This document shows positions 11,899 through 18,209 of a DNA stretch of 64,000 nucleotides, piece after piece. Origin of the DNA: a phage; sequence record PZ168832.1, one strand, 5' to 3'. Position numbers and translations under genes: made by a program. The notes below the pieces were generated by a model that was not told the origin of the DNA, made no database searches, and saw only the letters and a program-made list of their open reading frames with translations. How positions within the stretch are numbered: position 1 is the stretch's first letter; each line of letters starts with the position of its first letter.

Positions 11899-12347
11899 TG
11901 GGTAAAAAGCTTATCGCCGCTGGTTGGGCCATCCCGAAGTGGGCTCATCGTGCGCACTACTTTGATGAAGGAGAAGTGCAAAGCCTTTGTGGTCGCGCAA
12001 CTTATTTCGGTGATGAGCGCGTCAGCGGCGATTACATCGACTCGCTTTTAGGCAAAGGTGATTGCAAGAAATGTCAGGATATATTAAGAGATATTCTTAC
12101 GCAAAGAGGATTGCTTGAGCTTGATGAATCGGAGGAAGTAATTGAACTTAAGCTTGAAGCGAATTACCTTATTTATACGTTCAAGAACTATTACGCAACT
12201 AATATGCGCTCAAAAATGAGCGAGGAAGTAATAGAAAAGGTGTTCACCTACAATCCGCTAAGGATGAATAAAACTAAATTGAAGAAGTTTAATATAATGT
12301 TAAGGAAAGAATTTAAAAGGCTTGGAGTGAAGAATTTTATATTTTAA
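11895..12347 (+). CDS. hypothetical protein (150 aa), last gene of early operon
   Basis: ORF track; followed by a terminator. Confidence 0.4.
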   Translation: MMGKKLIAAGWAIPKWAHRAHYFDEGEVQSLCGRATYFGDERVSGDYIDSLLGKGDCKKCQDILRDILTQRGLLELDESEEVIELKLEANYLIYTFKNYYATNMRSKMSEEVIEKVFTYNPLRMNKTKLKKFNIMLRKEFKRLGVKNFIF

Positions 12348-12363
12348 TAGTGATTAATGTTAA

Positions 12364-12388
12364 GAGGGCCGATTGGCCCTTTTTGTTT
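12364..12388 (+). terminator. rho-independent terminator ending the early operon
   Basis: agggccgattggccc stem followed by ttttt. Confidence 0.5.
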
Positions 12389-12880
12389 GCCTGTGGAATG
12401 TGAGGCTTTTGTGGTTATTTACGATTCAAGGCTGTAATTTAAGAGAGCGAAAATATTATAATAATTTATCAAGATTATTGCATATTGTGGCAATCAACGT
12501 TTATACGTATTTATGACAGTTTAATCCACTAAATAATACGGATAGAACAGTGAGGAAAATACAGCGGTGTATTTTAGTGTAAATATTGAATCAAAAATAA
12601 ATAATTATGGTGCTATTATATACGCAGATTGTTTGTAATTTATAGGATATTTTATCGTGGAGTATTGGCTAACGGTGCGTTAGCCGTGGGTCTTGGTGCT
12701 TGTGGTGTTGATGCTCAGAATTTTAATAATGTTTTAGTTTTAGTAATCGTAGTCAATGATGATACGTATAAGAAAATGAGAGTCACCCCTTCACAGGATA
12801 TTGTACCGTGGCCCTGTGGTGCGCCGCGCCTGGGATTGCTGGTATACACTGGTGCTATTTTGCCGCGAAGGCAGTCATTC

Positions 12881-13210
12881 ATACGTATCATGACGTATCA
12901 TTGGGCTATTGATTTATAAGGAAAAATACGCTGATACGGATGATACGGGTGCAAACATAATATATATAGAATTCCAGAAAATTAATTAACTCCATTTTGA
13001 ATTAATTTAAATTAATTTTTTTCTACATCCTCATACTTATACTAAACTTATATTTATACGTATCATCCGTAAGATATAAGTAAAAACAAAGACTTGCGGC
13101 AATACGGATGATACGTCATGATACGCTTCAACCAGCCATCTGCGGCTAAGTCATTGATTTGCATAACAAGCGGCGAAAGGGATGGATTTCTTTTATACGT
13201 ATCAAACAGT
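12881..13210. repeat. iteron region A: CCGTATCAT / ATGATACGG copies in alternating orientation around an AT-rich core
   Basis: acgtatcatgacgtatcat (~12883), gatacggatgatacgg (~12933), AT-rich core with gaattc and attaatttaaattaattttttt, cgtatcatccgta (~13059), atacggatgatacgtcatgatacg (~13102), tatacgtatca (~13196). Confidence 0.6.
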
Positions 13211-13339
13211 ACACCACGCACCACGGTCCGCAATCCACGCAGCATTATGATTTGTGTACATTTATAGCCATAATGAACATCAATCTGCACTTGAATATAA
13301 TGTCCATCCATTGTATAATTCACACTATTAATTTGCACT

Positions 13340-13828
13340 ATGGGATTTTGCACTATGAGTCAAGACTATGTAGCGATGCCTGAAGACTTTGAAGACCCGC
13401 GATTTGCAGAGCACAATCAGGCTTTATTCGATGAGTTCATTGACCTTGTTATTCAGGGCCATGACATGCGCGCAGCTTTTGCACTAGTATTTGGAATGGA
13501 AGTTGCAACGGATAACTACACTGGACAGCGAATCCTTTGCGCGCAACGCAACCCATACTACAAAATGCGCTTCAAAAAGCGTATGGAAGAGATGCCACTC
13601 AAGGATTTGTGGAGCGTAAAAGGTGCAATTCACAATTTGGTTAAGCTTGTGCGTGATCCAGAAGTCGCGGCGTCAGCCAAGCTTAATGCTATTCGCGAAC
13701 TGAATATCATCTACGGCATCACGATGATTGATGAAAACGGCAATAGTAAAATGGGCCGTTCCATGGACGATTTCTACAAGGATTTTGGAGAGGCAGCCAA
13801 AGAAGGCGAGCAATTCTCCCGCCACTAG
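13340..13828 (+). CDS. possible terminase small subunit (alternatively a DNA-binding regulator)
   Basis: 162 aa; FIDLVIQGHDMRAAFALVFG...AQRNPYYKMRF resembles the helix-turn-helix region of small terminase families (from memory); flanked by the 12-mer array. Confidence 0.4.
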   Translation: MGFCTMSQDYVAMPEDFEDPRFAEHNQALFDEFIDLVIQGHDMRAAFALVFGMEVATDNYTGQRILCAQRNPYYKMRFKKRMEEMPLKDLWSVKGAIHNLVKLVRDPEVAASAKLNAIRELNIIYGITMIDENGNSKMGRSMDDFYKDFGEAAKEGEQFSRH

Positions 13829-13845
13829 CCAATTTGCACTATAAA

Positions 13846-13880
13846 ACGGCCCTAGAACACATCTTCTCCACTTCTAGGGC
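13846..13880 (+). terminator. perfect 10-bp inverted repeat (ggccctagaa ... ttctagggcc), probable terminator
   Basis: Directly after the 13340..13828 stop; no strong T-run. Confidence 0.35.
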
Positions 13881-13942
13881 CGTCGGTAATACGACGGGGA
13901 AGGTTGCAACCGTAAACGCGTTAGAAAGTGTATTATTATAAG

Positions 13943-14206
13943 TCATCTTTTAGTCACCTTACGTAACAATTTACGACCTTCAGCCGTCCAATCGAACGAC
14001 TCCACCAGCAGATTCGCACTATAACCTAAGATGATGCGCCCTTTCTCGTTATCGACCCGCCAACAAGTCTCGAATAGCATTCGATTTGCACTATTAACTA
14101 TCGCCGCAACGCGCGTAGGGTAAACGCAATTTGCACTATGGTCATAAAGGGATAAGGTGCGACCACTTCCGATGGACAACGTAGCGATGAGAATGAGCGT
14201 ATTCAT
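13943..14206 (-). CDS. hypothetical protein (87 aa), island gene
   Basis: ORF track; CpG-rich codon usage; contains two 12-mer copies. Confidence 0.35.
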   Translation of the reverse strand: MNTLILIATLSIGSGRTLSLYDHSANCVYPTRVAAIVNSANRMLFETCWRVDNEKGRIILGYSANLLVESFDWTAEGRKLLRKVTKR

Positions 14207-14256
14207 AAGCCACCAATTTGCACTATGAAAAGCGACCCCGAAGGGCCGCCATTCGA

Positions 14257-14883
14257 TTAGATAATCTGGAAGGTGTAGGACTTGTTGCCGAACTCGAAGT
14301 TCAAGCGCCCAGCTTCCTTAAGCTTCATGCGGAAGCGAATATGTTTGCTATCCGGTAAGCCCAGCGCGGCGAACGCTACGCGGACCGATTTGAACTCTCC
14401 TACACCCTCGACCATAACGCCGTTACGGGTAAGACGCTTTTGCGCCACTTCCTTATTATCCCAACTTTTTGCAATGCCTTCGCTATTCGAACGGCGATGG
14501 GAAGGAGTTCCGTTTTGCACTACGCAATTTGCACTATCGTTTAAACCGCTCTTAACGAAGGCTTCATACTCTTCGTCGGTCATCGCGTCGAGTTCTTCCT
14601 GCGTCGGCTCGGCCTTTTTAACGACCGCACGCGCCTTATGCGTTTTTACATCGCTGGACACTTCCTCGCGCGGCTTCGCGTCGGGGATGGGCGATTCGTT
14701 GGACGGCTCATCGAGCGCGTTTAAGGACTCGATTAACGCGATTACGCGAGTCTCGGCGGTCCGGCGGTCCGAAAACTTCTTAATCGGTTTTGAGCCGGAA
14801 TTTGCATTATAGAATGCAACGAGGTCGGCGGTCTTAGTTGCGATAACGTCGCCGCTAGTCGAGAAGCGATTTAAGCTAACCAT
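14257..14883 (-). CDS. hypothetical protein (208 aa) with acidic central segment, island gene
   Basis: ORF track; EPTQEELDAMTDEEYEAF; unusually NCG-codon-rich. Confidence 0.45.
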   Translation of the reverse strand: MVSLNRFSTSGDVIATKTADLVAFYNANSGSKPIKKFSDRRTAETRVIALIESLNALDEPSNESPIPDAKPREEVSSDVKTHKARAVVKKAEPTQEELDAMTDEEYEAFVKSGLNDSANCVVQNGTPSHRRSNSEGIAKSWDNKEVAQKRLTRNGVMVEGVGEFKSVRVAFAALGLPDSKHIRFRMKLKEAGRLNFEFGNKSYTFQII

Positions 14884-14963
14884 AATAAACTCCTATTTGT
14901 TAGGGCGCTAGGCGCGAAAGAATTTTATTAAAGCGCCGCGCACGACGCTCTAAAAATCCTCTC

Positions 14964-15248
14964 TTACGCTTCGACGAGGGAGAAGGTTTCAAATTCTTCT
15001 TCTCCCATAACGAGTAAAATATTCCCGATTTCGACCGCTTCGAAGAAGTATCCGTTAACGTTTACTTCGAATGATTCGCGGTCCGATTCCGGTAACGCCG
15101 CGTAAAGTTTAAAAGCCTCGGCGACCGTTACCCCACCCGCTTCAATAGTTTGATCTACGTTCGCGGCGTAGACTTCGGATAAATTTTGTTTTACGCCGTA
15201 GTTCTCGACGATAGCGTTACGGATAGAAGAAACGTTAAGAATAGCCAT
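14964..15248 (-). CDS. small acidic protein, paralogue family member 1 (94 aa)
   Basis: About 16 D/E versus 4 K/R; SEVYAANVDQTIE and FEVNVNGYFFEAVEIGN align with YLSNVDATIE and YRVTINGFVYTITEIGG of 15880..16170. Confidence 0.5.
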   Translation of the reverse strand: MAILNVSSIRNAIVENYGVKQNLSEVYAANVDQTIEAGGVTVAEAFKLYAALPESDRESFEVNVNGYFFEAVEIGNILLVMGEEEFETFSLVEA

Positions 15249-15316
15249 TTTAAACTCCTAGTTGGGATAGGCGTTAACGACCTATTCGTTAACTCATCCC
15301 GTCCCGATATGAGTAC

Positions 15317-15344
15317 ATTATAATATAGTGTAGAAAAAAGTAAA
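15317..15344 (-). promoter_or_regulatory. promoter-leader cassette, copy 1 (minus strand): TTTACT, spacer, TATAAT, leader gtactcatatcgggacggg
   Basis: Reverse complement of the divergent region matches the two plus-strand cassette copies. Confidence 0.4.
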
Positions 15345-15388
15345 GCACTTTTTCGATAAAAATGCGATAAATTATTTTATCTTTTTTC

Positions 15389-15433
15389 TTTACTTCTTCG
15401 TACACTCGCGTATACTTGTTTATATCGAGACGG
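15389..15433 (+). promoter_or_regulatory. promoter-leader cassette, copy 2: TTTACT (16 bp) TATACT, leader gtttatatcgagacggg
   Basis: ctttacttcttcgtacactcgcgtatacttgtttatatcgagacggg upstream of ATG 15472. Confidence 0.45.
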
Positions 15434-15471
15434 GCGATGGCCTTTCTTCTACTAGCATCGGGAGCTTTATT

Positions 15472-15774
15472 ATGACTACTTTGATCTCTTCCATCCTTAC
15501 TTACGACGAAGACCGCTTAACCGTTCGCTCTCTTATCGCCGCCGTTAACGCGGAACTAGAATCTAGCGCCATTAAGGTCCGCGCGGTCGCCTTCATCGGC
15601 CTTTCCTTCGACGATATGAAGTACGCCGAACGTAGCGCCATCCGCTTCACGAAGACCGACGACGAAGCCGTTACCCTTATCGAGACGGTTACGCCGCGCG
15701 ACGAAGCGTTAATTATCATCGAGTATATCGATATAGAAGGTGATAAAGCTTATAAATATTTTATCGCAAAATAA
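15472..15774 (+). CDS. small acidic protein (100 aa), island gene
   Basis: ORF track; driven by cassette copy 2. Confidence 0.45.
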   Translation: MTTLISSILTYDEDRLTVRSLIAAVNAELESSAIKVRAVAFIGLSFDDMKYAERSAIRFTKTDDEAVTLIETVTPRDEALIIIEYIDIEGDKAYKYFIAK

Positions 15775-15785
15775 CGAAAAATTGC

Positions 15786-15830
15786 TTTACTTATTCGTAC
15801 ACTAAGACTATAATGTTTATATCGAGAGGG
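15786..15830 (+). promoter_or_regulatory. promoter-leader cassette, copy 3: TTTACT (17 bp) TATAAT, leader gtttatatcgagaggg
   Basis: gctttacttattcgtacactaagactataatgtttatatcgagaggg upstream of ATG 15880. Confidence 0.45.
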
Positions 15831-15879
15831 ATGAGGAAGCGAATAGGTCGCTACCCTCCCGACTAACTAGGAGAATATT

Positions 15880-16170
15880 ATGATTACTTTATCCGCTATC
15901 CGCGCCGCTCGCGTCGAAACTTCCGAAAACTCTAATGTATTTGGCGAAACCTTAGAGAGCGTTTATCTCTCTAACGTAGACGCGACTATCGAGTCTATTT
16001 ATGAACCGATCAACTTCCTCGACCTTTACAAGTATCGCGACGAGGACGTAGCATCCTACCGCGTAACGATTAACGGCTTCGTCTATACGATTACCGAAAT
16101 CGGCGGCGAATATCTCGCGATCCCGCAACTCGGCGGAGAAGTGACTTATTTTAAAATCGTAAGCCTTTAA
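15880..16170 (+). CDS. small acidic protein, paralogue family member 2 (96 aa)
   Basis: Alignable to 14964..15248 product; about 15 D/E versus 6 K/R. Confidence 0.5.
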   Translation: MITLSAIRAARVETSENSNVFGETLESVYLSNVDATIESIYEPINFLDLYKYRDEDVASYRVTINGFVYTITEIGGEYLAIPQLGGEVTYFKIVSL

Positions 16171-16181
16171 GGAGAAGAAAA

Positions 16182-16391
16182 ATGACTAATATGAATAACT
16201 CTCTTAACGCGCGCGCCCATCGTACCGCCGTCATCGATATGTTCCGCGAACTTAAGGAATTATGCGATAATATGAACGCGATGTTATCCATCGGCGGCTG
16301 GGGATACGAAGAAGAGGTTAAATACGCGGTTATGCGTCGTAAGCGCGATAACGTCCTGGGACAAATTAAACGCGCCGGATTATTCCTTTAA
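16182..16391 (+). CDS. hypothetical small protein (69 aa)
   Basis: ORF track; aggag RBS. Confidence 0.4.
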   Translation: MTNMNNSLNARAHRTAVIDMFRELKELCDNMNAMLSIGGWGYEEEVKYAVMRRKRDNVLGQIKRAGLFL

Positions 16392-16416
16392 TTATAATTA
16401 CCCACCGTTACTAATA

Positions 16417-16440
16417 GGCCGCGCTTAGTCGCGGCTTTTC
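16417..16440 (+). terminator. rho-independent terminator (ggccgcgcttagtcgcggc plus tttt)
   Basis: Read directly after 16182..16391. Confidence 0.45.
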
Positions 16441-16561
16441 TTCGTCCCTATTTCGATGCGCTTCTCCGCGAAAACTCCTTTATCCTTCCCTTCGTCGTCG
16501 CATAATCTTCTTCGAGATGCTCCTTAGTTCGCATAACAGGTATTACGTTAAATGGAGAACA

Positions 16562-16823
16562 TCGCGTAAGTCCTTGTTTTATATAGACACCTATATCGGA
16601 CCGTTAGGGCGGGTCGCGTAAGTCGTTGTTTTATAAAGGCGCAAAACTTTCCCTTCGTTCCGAACTAAAACGAGGAATATGCCGACCCTTCGTCCGAAAA
16701 TAGTACGCATGCGAAATTACATGCATCTAGAATAATCCCCACCGATATTATCCTACACGCAATCATTCGCTTTCGAATCATTATGCTTCATATTGTTATG
16801 CGTCAAATCATTCGCTTTCGAAT
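16562..16823. repeat. direct repeats in an ORF-poor region: tcgcgtaagtc(c/g)ttgttttata x2 and atcattcgctttcgaat x2
   Basis: Copies at about 16562/16614 and 16762/16807; the second contains palindrome attcg-cttt-cgaat. Confidence 0.4.
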
Positions 16824-17095
16824 TGTAACGCTGGAAACTGTAACGGCTATTGATTATTGCGTTCGTGTGGTTTTTATGGCATGGGTCTTTTGGTGCGTTT
16901 TGGTACTTGATGGAATTTGCGGTACACTAATCAAAATACGACACATTTGGTCCACTAACTTTTCAAAGAAAAAGTCCCAGACAGTACCGTACTATTTTGT
17001 ACCCACAGTAAATTTGCAGTACACTCCTGCGCGGCAGGCAAAATAAAGGGCCGCCACAGCGACCCACGATTCACGGTTAAATCAACAAGCACCCA

Positions 17096-17542
17096 CTATT
17101 CACTCTTATGGGCATCACCAAAGCCATCCGCAATCTGGCTGATCAGCGATTCAATGGACACAGTTTTACCAATTGATCGAGCGGTAATAGCAAGCATATT
17201 ATCAATCAAACCATGATTGGATGCATATGATCCAGGTTTTGAATCATCTTCAGAACAACCAAAAAGCTGGTCGCGCAGACTTTCAAGAGAACGCTCAATA
17301 TTTTCCAACTTCTCTTCTAAATCGGATTGGCGACGTAAAACCCACGTCAAGTCACGGTTGCCAACTTCCAATCCATCAGAATAGCAAGGTGGAGCGTCAA
17401 TTTTGATGCTGGAACCAAAAGCAATGCCGCTGCCTTTAGTATATGTGTGACTCATAGAATCATTTTTATTTGACATATCGTTACCTTCAATATTTGGGTG
17501 ATTAACAATAAGTATAATAAAGCCGCATAGCGCGGCATTCAA
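17096..17542 (-). CDS. hypothetical protein (start possibly at internal MSNKND)
   Basis: ORF track. Confidence 0.4.
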   Translation of the reverse strand: MNAALCGFIILIVNHPNIEGNDMSNKNDSMSHTYTKGSGIAFGSSIKIDAPPCYSDGLEVGNRDLTWVLRRQSDLEEKLENIERSLESLRDQLFGCSEDDSKPGSYASNHGLIDNMLAITARSIGKTVSIESLISQIADGFGDAHKSE

Positions 17543-17551
17543 ATCGATTTA

Positions 17552-17800
17552 TTAATTGTGACGATTGGATTCATCAATCGATACCAATTGTGCAGGGTCG
17601 CCGGATACAGTTGCGCCGATGATGCCCATCTGAGAGAAAAATTCTGAATAAACTTCCTTCCAGTACTTACGCGCTGCTTTCTGGGCTTGTCCTTTGCGCT
17701 TGAAGCTTTTGCCTTGAAAGATGAAACGGTCTTTTGGCGCGGAATACTCCACCACACCTTCCAGCCATTGTAAGAATGCTACTGATTCATTTTGATTCAT
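17552..17800 (-). CDS. hypothetical protein (82 aa)
   Basis: ORF track. Confidence 0.35.
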   Translation of the reverse strand: MNQNESVAFLQWLEGVVEYSAPKDRFIFQGKSFKRKGQAQKAARKYWKEVYSEFFSQMGIIGATVSGDPAQLVSIDESNRHN

Positions 17801-17807
17801 ATAATCC

Positions 17808-18209
17808 TCAATATTTTAATAAGAAAGCGCCCAACCAACTTTCCTCAATCTCGCGGCCAGTAGCCACACGGTCGGTCTTTGCTATGGGTCTGGATTCGCC
17901 GCAGGGTAATCCGTCTTGTAGCTGTGTACTATTGCCAATTCTCACCAAAACCTTTCCATCAGGGTCGATATAAGCGCGACAACCCATGATTTCGAGTCGC
18001 TGTAGACACTGGCGAATCGTTTTCAGCTTCTCACCGGACCGGATAGAGCGTGGTCGCGACCGCGACCGCTGACCGTTCTTATTCACTGTACGCTTGAAAA
18101 CCGGAATATCATTGGTGCGTTGTGGCTTGGGTCGGTAGTAGGCTTCTTCACCAGGAGTTGCGCCTGGTGTCAGTTCGCGCTTAAGCGCCTTTTCGATATC
18201 GATGATCAT
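17808..18209 (-). CDS. hypothetical basic protein (133 aa)
   Basis: ORF track; Arg/Ser-rich segment. Confidence 0.4.
   Translation of the reverse strand: MIIDIEKALKRELTPGATPGEEAYYRPKPQRTNDIPVFKRTVNKNGQRSRSRPRSIRSGEKLKTIRQCLQRLEIMGCRAYIDPDGKVLVRIGNSTQLQDGLPCGESRPIAKTDRVATGREIEESWLGAFLLKY

What the first reader, a model, noticed from the sequence alone, without database searches (positions are those of the whole stretch)
16392..17095. ORF-poor, repeat-rich 0.7 kb stretch at the right edge of the island
No convincing ORF is present (track ORF 16783..17046 looks spurious), yet there are two copies of tcgcgtaagtc(c/g)ttgttttata about 50 bp apart and two copies of the palindrome-containing atcattcgctttcgaat. 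Very short minus-strand reading frames beginning ATGCG(A/T)ACT recur. This could be decayed gene copies, small RNA genes or a binding-site array.
Basis: seen in the sequence. Interest (0 to 1): 0.4.

Follow-up and report, generated by a model that had tools for sequence, protein, structure and literature searches.

The report
Non-coding right end of phage terminal repeat
This gene-free, repeat-rich 0.7 kb stretch is the conserved non-coding DNA in which the 3.9 kb direct terminal repeat of a Wifcevirus coliphage ends, so it most likely carries the signals for cutting and packaging the chromosome rather than genes or small RNAs.

Summary
16392-17095 has no conserved ORF, and the two repeat pairs are real.

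The window is a Wifcevirus (ECML-117/WFC-like E. coli myophage) genome with its direct terminal repeat (DTR) collapsed to one copy. The stretch is the gap between two convergent intrinsic terminators, and it contains the right DTR boundary at 16890|16891. Four of five Wifcevirus end determinations agree on this position; WFC places it at 16971|16972.

The gap is present in all 29 Wifcevirus records. It varies 2-4 times less than third codon positions of the flanking genes.

A 40-nt element lies immediately outside the boundary: TGGTGCG..ATGGA..GTACACTAA, 16891-16930. It recurs, starting at the independently determined DTR boundary, in Serratia phage MyoSmar (27/40 identical, 0/300 shuffles reach this). 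It also recurs in Pantoea phage Kyle (30/45).

Kyle also conserves one AATCATTCGCTTTCGAAT box and its spacer.

Rfam matches, folding, promoter scans, ORF conservation, paralogue searches and DnaA boxes gave nothing.

Best reading: a cis-acting chromosome-end (terminase cutting and packaging) region. The anatomy is shown; the function is inferred. The DTR itself is published; the conserved boundary element appears to be undescribed.

The parts
12994..16890 (.). Direct terminal repeat (DTR), present once in this window because the assembly is collapsed. This is context for the finding.
   Evidence: The left end ...AACTCC|ATTTT and the right end ...GGGTCTTT|TGGTGCG were read from GenBank records that carry both copies with 0 mismatches: SP13, Ro157lw and WFH. 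They also match Mansfield's PhageTerm annotation. Published DTR lengths are 3,533-3,7xx bp (PMC6454146, PMC6753283, PMC6563267).
16416..16445 (+). Intrinsic terminator closing the rightward DTR genes (15880..16391).
   Evidence: 8-bp stem with 6 GC pairs followed by a T-tract. Invariant in 17 phages. Annotated as a terminator in Mansfield, WFC and WFH.
16446..16760 (.). Conserved non-coding DNA inside the DTR.
   Evidence: No conserved ORF. Diversity pi = 0.048, against 0.087-0.205 at third codon positions of flanking genes.
16562..16586 (+). Repeat D2, copy 1: TCGCGTAAGTCCTTGTTTTATATAG.
   Evidence: pi = 0.018.
16614..16638 (+). Repeat D2, copy 2: TCGCGTAAGTCGTTGTTTTATAAAG.
   Evidence: pi = 0.009, the most conserved piece of the gap.
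16651..16707 (+). Repeat D3: CCCTTCGT(T)CCGAA... twice, 35 nt apart.
   Evidence: 73% identity. Weak; may be chance.
16761..16778 (+). Repeat D1, copy 1: AATCATTCGCTTTCGAAT, with palindromic core ATTCG-CTTT-CGAAT.
   Evidence: Absent from phage Bas100, which lacks exactly 16761-16805.
16806..16823 (+). Repeat D1, copy 2: AATCATTCGCTTTCGAAT.
   Evidence: Conserved in Pantoea phage Kyle as AATCATTAGCCTTCTAATT, with arms ATTAG/CTAAT.
16890..16891 (.). Right DTR boundary, which is the right physical end of virion DNA.
   Evidence: Four of five Wifcevirus determinations agree. Homologous position in MyoSmar (same) and Kyle (+/- 1 nt).
16891..16930 (+). Boundary element: TGGTGCGTTTTGGTACTTGATGGAATTTGCGGTACACTAA.
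   Evidence: It is the best of 314,721 40-mer pairs between the window and MyoSmar flanks, it begins at both boundaries, and it has 27/40 identities; 0 of 300 shuffles reach 27. Kyle matches 30/45. TGGTGCG and GTACACTAA are invariant in 17 Wifcevirus genomes.
16914..16928 (+). Repeat D4, copy 1: AATTTGCGGTACACT (overlaps the boundary element).
16958..16975 (.). Imperfect palindrome ACTTTTC-AAA-GAAAAAGT that contains the alternative DTR end reported for phage WFC (16971|16972).
   Evidence: WFC record; hairpin seen in folds.
17011..17025 (+). Repeat D4, copy 2: AATTTGCAGTACACT.
17040..17065 (-). Intrinsic terminator closing the leftward genes (17096..17476 and upstream).
   Evidence: 7-bp stem with 6 GC pairs followed by TTTATTTT. 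Annotated in WFC and WFH.

Best explanation
The stretch is the non-coding junction region at the right end of the roughly 3.9 kb direct terminal repeat (DTR) of a Wifcevirus genome.

Shown:
- It lies between two face-to-face intrinsic terminators, so it probably carries little read-through transcription (an inference from the terminators and the lack of strong promoters; no transcript data were available).
- It contains the point (16890|16891) at which packaged chromosomes end on the right.
- It is under purifying selection although it codes for nothing.
- A block of roughly 180-200 nt spanning the boundary (about 16757-16935) is conserved in a different genus, Kylevirus. This block includes an AATCATT-box palindrome.
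- The 40-nt element TGGTGCG...GTACACTAA, which starts at the first base outside the repeat, is conserved in both Kylevirus and Myosmarvirus. In both it starts at, or 1 nt from, that phage's own DTR boundary.

Inferred:
- This block is the cis-acting signal that the phage terminase uses to make the right-end cut in replicated concatemers. The small terminase subunit (TerS) is encoded inside the same DTR at 13340..13828.
- The repeat would then be duplicated during packaging, as in T7-type DTR phages.
- The genus-specific repeats further in (the two TCGCGTAAGTCSTTGTTTTATA copies, 250-330 nt from the physical end) are probably accessory protein-binding sites of the same end-processing or end-protection function. 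This last step is the weakest.
For: Identity of the window: 94-97% nucleotide identity to 29 Wifcevirus records.

DTR ends:
- Read from records that carry both copies, and from Mansfield's PhageTerm feature.
- Published as PhageTerm or sequencing results in PMC6753283, PMC6454146 and PMC6563267.

Terminators.

No coding signal.

Constraint: gap pi = 0.045, against 0.087-0.205 at third codon positions of eight neighbouring genes. The D2 copies have pi = 0.009-0.018.

Cross-genus conservation anchored on independently mapped boundaries:
- MyoSmar 27/40 at offset 0/0, with 0 of 300 shuffles reaching 27.
- Kyle 30/45 with one 1-nt indel.
- The D1 box and its spacer match Kyle 28/40, with 0 of 200 shuffles reaching 28.
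- Within Myosmarvirus, the matches of the more divergent members (SMP, Spe5P4, TropicalSun; 86% identity) to a 400-nt query centred on the MTx boundary cover only about -81 to +146 nt around it.

TerS homologue: E = 6e-34 to the phage E217 small terminase, PDB 7UXE (PMC9611059). It is 36% identical to the first DTR gene of MTx.
Against: - No experiment links any of these sequences to terminase binding or cutting.
- E217 TerS showed no appreciable DNA binding in vitro (PMC9611059).
- The WFC record places the boundary 81 nt further right, at 16971|16972, which puts the 40-nt element inside the repeat.
- MTx's PhageTerm boundary is 14 nt further in than MyoSmar's.
- Viable phage Bas100 lacks one D1 copy.
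- The D2 repeats are not significantly conserved outside the genus.
- The D1 palindrome is not strictly maintained within the genus: single-arm changes are seen.
- The boundary DNA has no special secondary structure (z = +1.9).
- The motifs TGGTGCG, GTACACT and AATCATT are individually not rare in the genome.
- Pbunavirus Ab27 and Salmonella phage PCSE1, which share the TerS family, lack the element in their first 7 kb.
Confidence: 0.6

Rival explanations
1. Regulatory DNA. The repeats would be operators or promoters for a phage or host regulator, possibly driving a small RNA or micro-protein from the minus strand. One candidate regulator is the adjacent 69-aa 'transcriptional regulator', 16182..16391.
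For: - The palindromic D1 boxes flank weak minus-strand promoter-like sites at 16806..16777 and 16776..16747.
- The adjacent gene matches PHROG 10377, 'transcriptional regulator', at 9.5e-38.
- One 150-nt window (16540-16689, plus strand) folds with z = -2.3.
- GTACACT also sits in the spacers of the strong early promoters at 15389-15416 and 15786-15814.
Against: - The 69-aa gene is absent from about half of the genus, while the gap is present in all 29 records.
- By my reading of the alignment, the -35 TTGACG is specific to this window, and the hairpin at 16705-16726 is broken in 8 of 17 relatives.
- No Rfam family matches.
- All small ORFs lack a coding signature.
- This reading does not explain why conservation across genera is anchored on the DTR boundary.
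Confidence: 0.15
2. A DNA-entry pause or stop signal like the T5 injection stop signal (iss). The left DTR copy would enter first, its small genes would be expressed, and entry of the rest of the genome would be held at the repeat-rich untranslated end of the repeat.
For: - Same position and look as T5 iss: a large untranslated region at the inner end of the left terminal repeat, with repeats, inverted repeats and palindromes (10.1101/866236).
- The DTR carries small genes of unknown function behind strong sigma-70-type promoters.
Against: - No DnaA box within 1 mismatch lies anywhere between 16198 and 17643, whereas T5-like iss regions have a fixed set of eight (10.1101/866236).
- None of the DTR proteins scanned has a named Pfam or PHROG function: there are no significant Pfam hits and only unknown-function PHROG families. 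Homology to T5 A1/A2 was not tested directly.
- These are contractile-tailed phages, and two-step transfer has not been reported for them.
- The reported latent period is very short (PMC11990801).
Confidence: 0.08
3. Neutral leftover. The stretch would be a decayed gene or mere spacer between convergent operons. It would look conserved only because the whole DTR is young or homogenised between its two copies.
For: - The whole DTR interior is less diverse (pi 0.02-0.07) than the DNA to its left (0.13-0.33).
- The CpG-rich composition of 16446-16760 resembles the neighbouring genes.
- Variation occurs in recombination-like blocks.
Against: - Third codon positions of genes inside the same DTR are 2-3 times more diverse than the gap (0.087-0.131 against 0.045).
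- The part outside the DTR (16891-17039) is equally conserved (pi 0.027-0.042).
- Conservation extends to other genera whose proteins are only 36-43% identical.
- No similarity to any gene in the window.
Confidence: 0.12

Closest known systems
Long direct terminal repeats of Wifcevirus, Myosmarvirus and Kylevirus phages, as predicted by PhageTerm (Mansfield, Ro157lw, WFC/WFH, MTx, MyoSmar)
   Same: The window is one of these genomes. The stretch contains the published right DTR boundary (PMC6753283, PMC6454146, PMC6563267, PMC6588376, PMC6753285).
   Different: In the papers I read, only the length of the repeat is reported. The non-coding region, its repeats and the boundary element conserved across genera are not described there.
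T7/T3-type concatemer junction. From my own knowledge: a terminal repeat flanked by terminase recognition and cleavage sequences (pacB/pacC) and by arrays of short repeats next to the repeat.
   Same: - Exact, non-permuted ends.
- The repeat must be duplicated at packaging.
- Repeat-rich non-coding DNA lies next to the repeat boundaries.
- The cut site is adjacent to conserved sequence.
   Different: - The repeat here is 3.9 kb rather than 160-230 bp, and it carries genes, including TerS.
- No sequence similarity to T7 was tested or is expected.
- No phage RNA polymerase promoter is evident near the junction.
T5 injection stop signal region in the left terminal repeat
   Same: A large untranslated, repeat- and palindrome-rich region at the inner end of a long terminal repeat that otherwise carries small early-type genes (10.1101/866236).
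   Different: - No DnaA boxes.
- Far smaller: about 0.45 kb inside the repeat.
- None of the DTR proteins scanned has a named Pfam or PHROG function; homology to T5 A1/A2 was not tested directly.
- Myovirus rather than siphovirus.
Lambda-type cos region (cosQ-cosN-cosB). From my own knowledge.
   Same: A precise cut next to a conserved multipartite recognition sequence in non-coding DNA, recognised through the small terminase subunit.
   Different: The ends here are direct repeats, not cohesive ends. No IHF-type or R-site organisation was identified.

Membership tests
Terminal region of a direct-terminal-repeat (DTR) phage genome | The sequence is present identically at both ends of the linear virion genome. 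| tested here: met
   In SP13, Ro157lw, WFH and WFC the first 3,533-3,899 nt equal the last 3,533-3,899 nt with 0 mismatches. The window's 16392-16890 is homologous to the end of that repeat.
Terminal region of a direct-terminal-repeat (DTR) phage genome | Sharp, reproducible end positions (read-start pile-ups). | not testable with these tools
   Raw reads are not available here. PhageTerm calls are reported for Mansfield and Ro157lw (PMC6753283, PMC6454146). Four of five Wifcevirus records agree to the nucleotide; WFC differs by 81 nt.
Terminal region of a direct-terminal-repeat (DTR) phage genome | The phage encodes a terminase that could make the cuts. | tested here: met
   TerS homologue at 13340..13828, E = 6e-34 to PDB 7UXE. 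I did not look for TerL.
Terminase recognition/cleavage site (pac/cos-like cis element) | Conserved sequence at a fixed distance from the cut in related phages. | tested here: met
   GTACACTAA begins 31, 31 and 32 nt after the boundary in the window, MyoSmar and Kyle. 27/40 and 30/45 identities start at the boundary.
Terminase recognition/cleavage site (pac/cos-like cis element) | Terminase binds and cuts there; mutation abolishes packaging. | not testable with these tools
   Needs EMSA or footprinting and genome engineering.
T5-type injection stop signal | A conserved array of DnaA boxes in the untranslated part of the left terminal repeat. | tested here: not met
   No TTWTNCACA match with up to 1 mismatch between 16198 and 17643.
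T5-type injection stop signal | Two-step DNA transfer dependent on pre-early proteins. | not testable with these tools
   No entry data.
Small non-coding RNA gene | Match to a described RNA family, or a conserved and stable secondary structure. | tested here: not met
   Best Rfam E-value is 2.8, and bit scores of 14-16 compare with gathering scores of 40-50. Fold z-scores range from -2.3 to +0.8.
Small non-coding RNA gene | Own promoter and terminator, conserved among relatives. | tested here: not met
   Only 9-of-12 promoter matches. By my reading of the alignment, the best-placed one is not conserved; the other two were not examined. The candidate minus-strand terminator hairpin at 16705-16726 is broken in 8 of 17 relatives.
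Pseudogene / decayed gene copy | Residual protein-level similarity to an intact gene. | tested here: not met
   tblastn of 30 six-frame pieces against the rest of the window gives a best E of 0.085. No PHROG hit for the two gap ORFs tested. I did not search the large protein databases.
Rho-independent terminators | GC-rich hairpin followed by a T-tract at the 3' end of a transcription unit. | tested here: met
   16416-16437 on the plus strand and 17065-17048 on the minus strand, each directly downstream of the last gene of a convergent unit.

The most novel reading that the evidence does not exclude
The block 16757-16935 would be the first defined cis-acting end-formation signal of a long-DTR myophage lineage. 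It would be shared by Wifcevirus, Kylevirus and Myosmarvirus. It consists of AATCATT-box palindromes inside the repeat and TGGTGCG-N24-GTACACTAA outside it, with the cut exactly between them. It would work together with the one-strand motif arrays inside the DTR around the TerS gene: AATTTGCACTAT x8 in this window, and TTGCACTAC/TTCGCACTA plus CCACCAGC in Kyle. This would make the unknown mechanism of long-repeat generation directly testable in a phage that can already be rebuilt in vitro (PMC11074155).
Probability: 0.4. Interest if true: 0.55.

Novelty: new member of a known kind. Interest (0 to 1): 0.35.

Why it matters
How phages with kilobase-long direct terminal repeats choose and cut their ends, and how they duplicate the repeat, is still unknown; PMC6454146 states this explicitly for long repeats. 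A short sequence that sits at the same distance from the mapped end in three genera is a concrete candidate for the recognition and cleavage signal.

It could be tested by mutagenesis in the published synthetic-genome system for vB_Eco4M-7. It would also help annotators to place genome ends correctly in this group of therapeutic and biocontrol candidate phages.

For the genome scan itself, the result is mostly a clarification. The 'island' probably corresponds to a terminal repeat, and the odd stretch is its non-coding end, not a gene graveyard or an RNA locus.

Tried and rejected
- Rfam E-value scan of 15500-18000: only chance-level hits.
- Six-frame tblastn of the gap against the rest of the window, looking for pseudogene remnants: nothing.
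- ORF intactness and synonymous/nonsynonymous counts in 17 genomes: no coding signal.
- Pfam and PHROGs on neighbouring genes and two gap ORFs (16783..17046 and 16591..16710): only the 69-aa 'regulator' and unknown-function families hit.
- Apparent similarity between 12687-12723 (left of the DTR) and the right boundary: not significant, score 28 against a shuffle mean of 22 and maximum of 38.
- Similarity of the D2 repeat to the Myosmarvirus sequence GCGTAAGTGGTTGAAAAATAAGT: not significant, except marginally for MTx (4 of 300 shuffles).
- DnaA boxes: none in the gap.
- RNA and DNA folding of the region: unremarkable, and the boundary is structure-poor.
- IMG/VR protein-anchored search: only the same genus was found.
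- IMG/VR pattern scans. The first used a wrong spacer length and found nothing. The corrected scan found only WFC, MTx and MyoSmar.
- Pbunavirus Ab27 and Salmonella phage PCSE1: no boundary element in the first 7 kb.
- Looking for assembly contig breaks at DTR boundaries in Logan and ENA contigs: uninformative.
- Genome-wide counts of GTACACT, AATCATT and TGGTGCG. The first two are at chance frequency, and TGGTGCG occurs 16 times against 8.7 expected. These short motifs are therefore not specific on their own.

Full report
**What is in the sequence**

The stretch 16392-17095 reads as described.
- The 22-mer TCGCGTAAGTC(C/G)TTGTTTTATA occurs at 16562 and 16614 and nowhere else in the 64 kb with up to 3 mismatches; 0 are expected.
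- ATCATTCGCTTTCGAAT occurs exactly at 16762 and 16807.
- The recurring minus-strand ATGCG(A/T)ACT is only two occurrences, which is chance level.
- Weaker repeats are CCCTTCGT... at 16651 and 16686, and AATTTGC(G/A)GTACACT at 16914 and 17011.

**Where the window comes from**

Megablast and blastn place the window in the genus Wifcevirus. These are E. coli/Shigella myophages of about 68 kb, such as ECML-117, FEC19, WFC/WFH, vB_Eco4M-7, Mansfield and Bas98-101.
- The 704-nt stretch is present in all 29 records at 89-97% identity.
- Its left neighbour, the 69-aa gene 16182..16391, is present in only some of them.
- The stretch lies between the last rightward gene and the last leftward gene (17096..17476).
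- Each of these units ends in an intrinsic terminator: 16416-16437 plus a T-tract on the plus strand, and 17065-17048 plus TTTATTTT on the minus strand.

**The 'island' probably corresponds to the direct terminal repeat (DTR)**

Phage Mansfield's record annotates a 3,673-bp DTR predicted by PhageTerm (PMC6753283). Four other records (WFC, WFH, SP13, Ro157lw) contain both copies. I compared the two ends of each of these records.
- The copies are identical, with 0 mismatches.
- All five records begin the repeat at ...AACTCC|ATTTT, which is window 12993|12994.
- Four end it at ...GGCATGGGTCTTT|TGGTGCG, which is window 16890|16891.
- WFC ends it 81 nt later, at ...CAAAGAAA|AAGTCC, which is 16971|16972.
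- Ro157lw's 3,533-bp DTR is also a PhageTerm result (PMC6454146). WFC and WFH are described as having repeats of about 3.7 kb (PMC6563267).

The window is therefore a collapsed, concatemer-like representation of the genome, and the finding holds the right end of the repeat. About 445 nt of non-coding DNA lie inside the repeat, and about 150 nt lie outside it before the minus-strand terminator.

**Not genes, not detectable RNAs**

I aligned 17 Wifcevirus genomes.
- The 87-aa ORF 16783..17046 is intact in 2 of 17.
- Every smaller ORF is broken or loses its start codon somewhere.
- All have 3-6 times more nonsynonymous than synonymous variant codons.
- The careful BASEL annotations (Bas98-101) call no gene in the gap.
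- Six-frame pieces have no similarity to the rest of the window, and the two gap ORFs tested have no PHROG match.
- Rfam gives only chance-level hits.
- RNA folds are unremarkable, the best being z = -2.3 in ten tests.
- Promoter-like sites are weak. By my reading of the alignment, the -35 of the best-placed one (16806..16777) is weakened in most relatives; I did not examine the other two.
- A minus-strand hairpin at 16705-16726 is destroyed in 8 of 17 genomes.

**Yet it is constrained**

| Region | Mean pairwise diversity (pi) |
|---|---|
| Whole gap | 0.045 |
| Third codon positions, eight neighbouring genes | 0.087-0.205 |
| Third codon positions, genes inside the same repeat | 0.087-0.131 |
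| D2 copies | 0.009-0.018 |
| 16824-16890 | 0.019 |
| 16931-17039 | 0.027 |

Viable phage Bas100 lacks exactly 16761-16805, which is one D1 copy plus its spacer. Two D1 copies are therefore not essential.

**Distant relatives**

Three distant relatives carry comparable repeats.

| Phage | Host | DTR length | Source |
|---|---|---|---|
| MTx | Serratia | 3,566 bp | PhageTerm, PMC6588376 |
| MyoSmar | Serratia | 3,559 bp | PhageTerm, PMC6753285 |
| Kyle | Pantoea | 3,603 bp | both copies in the record, 0 mismatches, |

- The first DTR gene of MTx is 36% identical to window 13340..13828. That fixes the orientation. The MyoSmar record is inverted relative to MTx.
- The window protein matches the solved small terminase of phage E217, PDB 7UXE, at E = 6e-34 (PMC9611059).
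- In all of these phages the right DTR boundary falls at or near the end of a 310-450 nt non-coding gap.

*The 40-nt boundary element.* I compared +/- 300 nt around the right boundaries.
- Of all 314,721 ungapped 40-mer pairs between the window and MyoSmar, the best begins at position +1 after both boundaries. It is TGGTGCGTTTTGGTACTTGATGGAATTTGCGGTACACTAA against TGGTGCGATTTCACACAAAATGGATTGGCACGTACACTAA.
- It has 27/40 identities. No dinucleotide shuffle out of 300 reaches 27.
- Kyle aligns from its own boundary at 30/45 with one 1-nt indel: GACCGCGATTTAGTACCTGGTCCAATTTCACAGTACACTAATCAG.
- GTACACTAA starts 31, 31 and 32 nt after the boundary in the window, MyoSmar and Kyle. MTx has the same element, but its PhageTerm boundary is 14 nt further in.
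- Within Wifcevirus, TGGTGCG and GTACACTAA are invariant.

*Conservation inside the repeat.*
- Kyle also conserves D1 copy 2: AATCATTAGCCTTCTAATT against AATCATTCGCTTTCGAATT. Both arms of the palindrome changed together, ATTAG/CTAAT against ATTCG/CGAAT.
- Kyle also conserves the spacer between the D1 copies, 28/40 with 0 of 200 shuffles reaching 28.
- Within the genus, the same two arm positions vary singly, so the palindrome is not strictly kept.

*Other checks.*
- Within Myosmarvirus, the matches of the more divergent members (SMP, Spe5P4, TropicalSun) to a 400-nt query centred on the MTx boundary are confined to about -81 to +146 nt around it.
- The D2 repeats are not significantly conserved outside Wifcevirus.
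- Pbunavirus Ab27 and Salmonella phage PCSE1 share the TerS family, but they lack both the gap and the element in their first 7 kb.

**Interpretation**

Shown:
- the anatomy: two terminators, non-coding DNA inside the repeat, the DTR boundary, and the boundary element;
- purifying selection on the gap;
- cross-genus conservation anchored on independently mapped ends.

Inferred:
- The block of about 180 nt spanning the boundary is the cis-acting signal for making the right chromosome end during packaging from concatemers. The repeat would be duplicated in the process.
- By analogy with T7-type phages (my own knowledge), the right-end cut may be the initiating cut.
- I cannot tell which side of the cut carries the recognition site, because both sides are conserved.
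- The role of the genus-specific D2 repeats, 250-330 nt from the physical end, is the least supported part. I favour accessory protein binding.

**Rivals**

- An operator or small-RNA locus would not explain the boundary-anchored conservation, and it lacks conserved promoter, terminator or structure.
- A T5-like injection stop signal matches the position and general look (10.1101/866236). It fails the DnaA-box test, and there are no entry data.
- A neutral spacer is contradicted by the diversity comparison.

**Open discrepancies**

- WFC's boundary lies 81 nt further right, inside the imperfect palindrome ACTTTTC-AAA-GAAAAAGT at 16958-16975.
- MTx's boundaries lie 14 nt inward of MyoSmar's at both ends.
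- E217 TerS did not bind DNA in vitro (PMC9611059).

**Novelty and score**

The DTR of these phages is published. The non-coding end region and the conserved boundary element are, as far as the papers I could read show, not described. This is a new example of a known kind of feature, a phage chromosome-end or packaging site, and not a new kind of system. Interest is modest (0.35). It would be higher (about 0.55) if the element is shown to direct end formation, because the mechanism for long terminal repeats is unknown.

Noticed in passing
window 13330-14810: AATTTGCACTAT (up to 1 mismatch) occurs 8 times in the window against 0.56 expected. All copies are on the plus strand and all lie inside the DTR, starting at the TerS start codon and regardless of gene strand. 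Kyle's DTR has analogous one-strand arrays: TTGCACTAC x4-5, TTCGCACTA x4 and CCACCAGC x9. MTx has CCACCAGCA x3. This is a candidate TerS-binding or other cis-acting array.
   Followed up: partly
window 12758-13204: Direct and inverted copies of GATACG / ACGTATCAT(GACGTATCAT) cluster on both sides of the DTR left end at 12994. They include a perfect 18-nt inverted pair at 12884-12901 and 13108-13125.
   Followed up: no
window 12809-12834: The 26-nt sequence TGGCCCTGTGGTGCGCCGCGCCTGGG lies 160-185 nt upstream of the DTR left end. It is conserved in MyoSmar upstream of its left end (TGGCTCTATGGTGCGCCGCGACTGGG; score 37, with 0 of 500 shuffles reaching it). It is not explained by protein homology of the overlapping ORFs. 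It contains the same TGGTGCG core as the right-boundary element.
   Followed up: partly
window 16182-16391: A 69-aa gene (PHROG 10377, 'transcriptional regulator', 9.5e-38) is present in this window, vB_Eco4M-7, ECML-117, FEC19, SP13, F13 and Ro157lw. It is absent from WFC, WFH, Mansfield, Bas98-101 and others. It is an indel directly abutting the conserved gap.
   Followed up: partly
window 15317-15416 and 15772-15814: There are strong sigma-70-type promoters (TTTACT-N16/17-TATAAT, 10 of 12 matches) on the minus strand at 15344..15317 and the plus strand at 15786..15814, and a 9-of-12 plus-strand site at 15389..15416. 15326-15358 and 15772-15804 form an 85% inverted repeat. The spacers of the two plus-strand promoters contain GTACACT, the core of the boundary element.
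   Followed up: no
window 11900-13000 versus 13000-14900: Diversity among 17 Wifcevirus genomes drops sharply at about the DTR left end, between the 12900-12999 and 13000-13099 windows. pi is 0.13-0.33 with many gaps to the left, and 0.02-0.07 inside the repeat.
   Followed up: no
window 16761-16805 (alignment with PQ850605, Bas100): Phage HansTraber_Bas100 lacks exactly one 45-nt unit, which is one AATCATTCGCTTTCGAAT copy plus its spacer. This is consistent with recombination between the 18-nt direct repeats.
   Followed up: yes
L025/L027 (MyoSmar) and L026/L028 (MTx): The MyoSmar GenBank record is in the opposite orientation to MTx and to Wifcevirus records. The PhageTerm boundaries of MTx lie 14 nt inward of MyoSmar's at both DTR ends. 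GTACACT(AA) also lies 9-23 nt inside the Myosmarvirus left end.
   Followed up: partly
window 13340-13828: The small terminase gene (E = 6e-34 to E217 TerS, PDB 7UXE) sits inside the terminal repeat, 346 nt from the left chromosome end. It is therefore present twice per virion.
   Followed up: partly
window 16953-16964 and L026 (MTx) 12-23: The 12-mer CACTAACTTTTC lies just before the WFC-type boundary in the window. It is also found 11 nt inside the left terminus of MTx (TAGTGTGCGTACACTAACTTTTCTAGAG). It may be coincidence.
   Followed up: no
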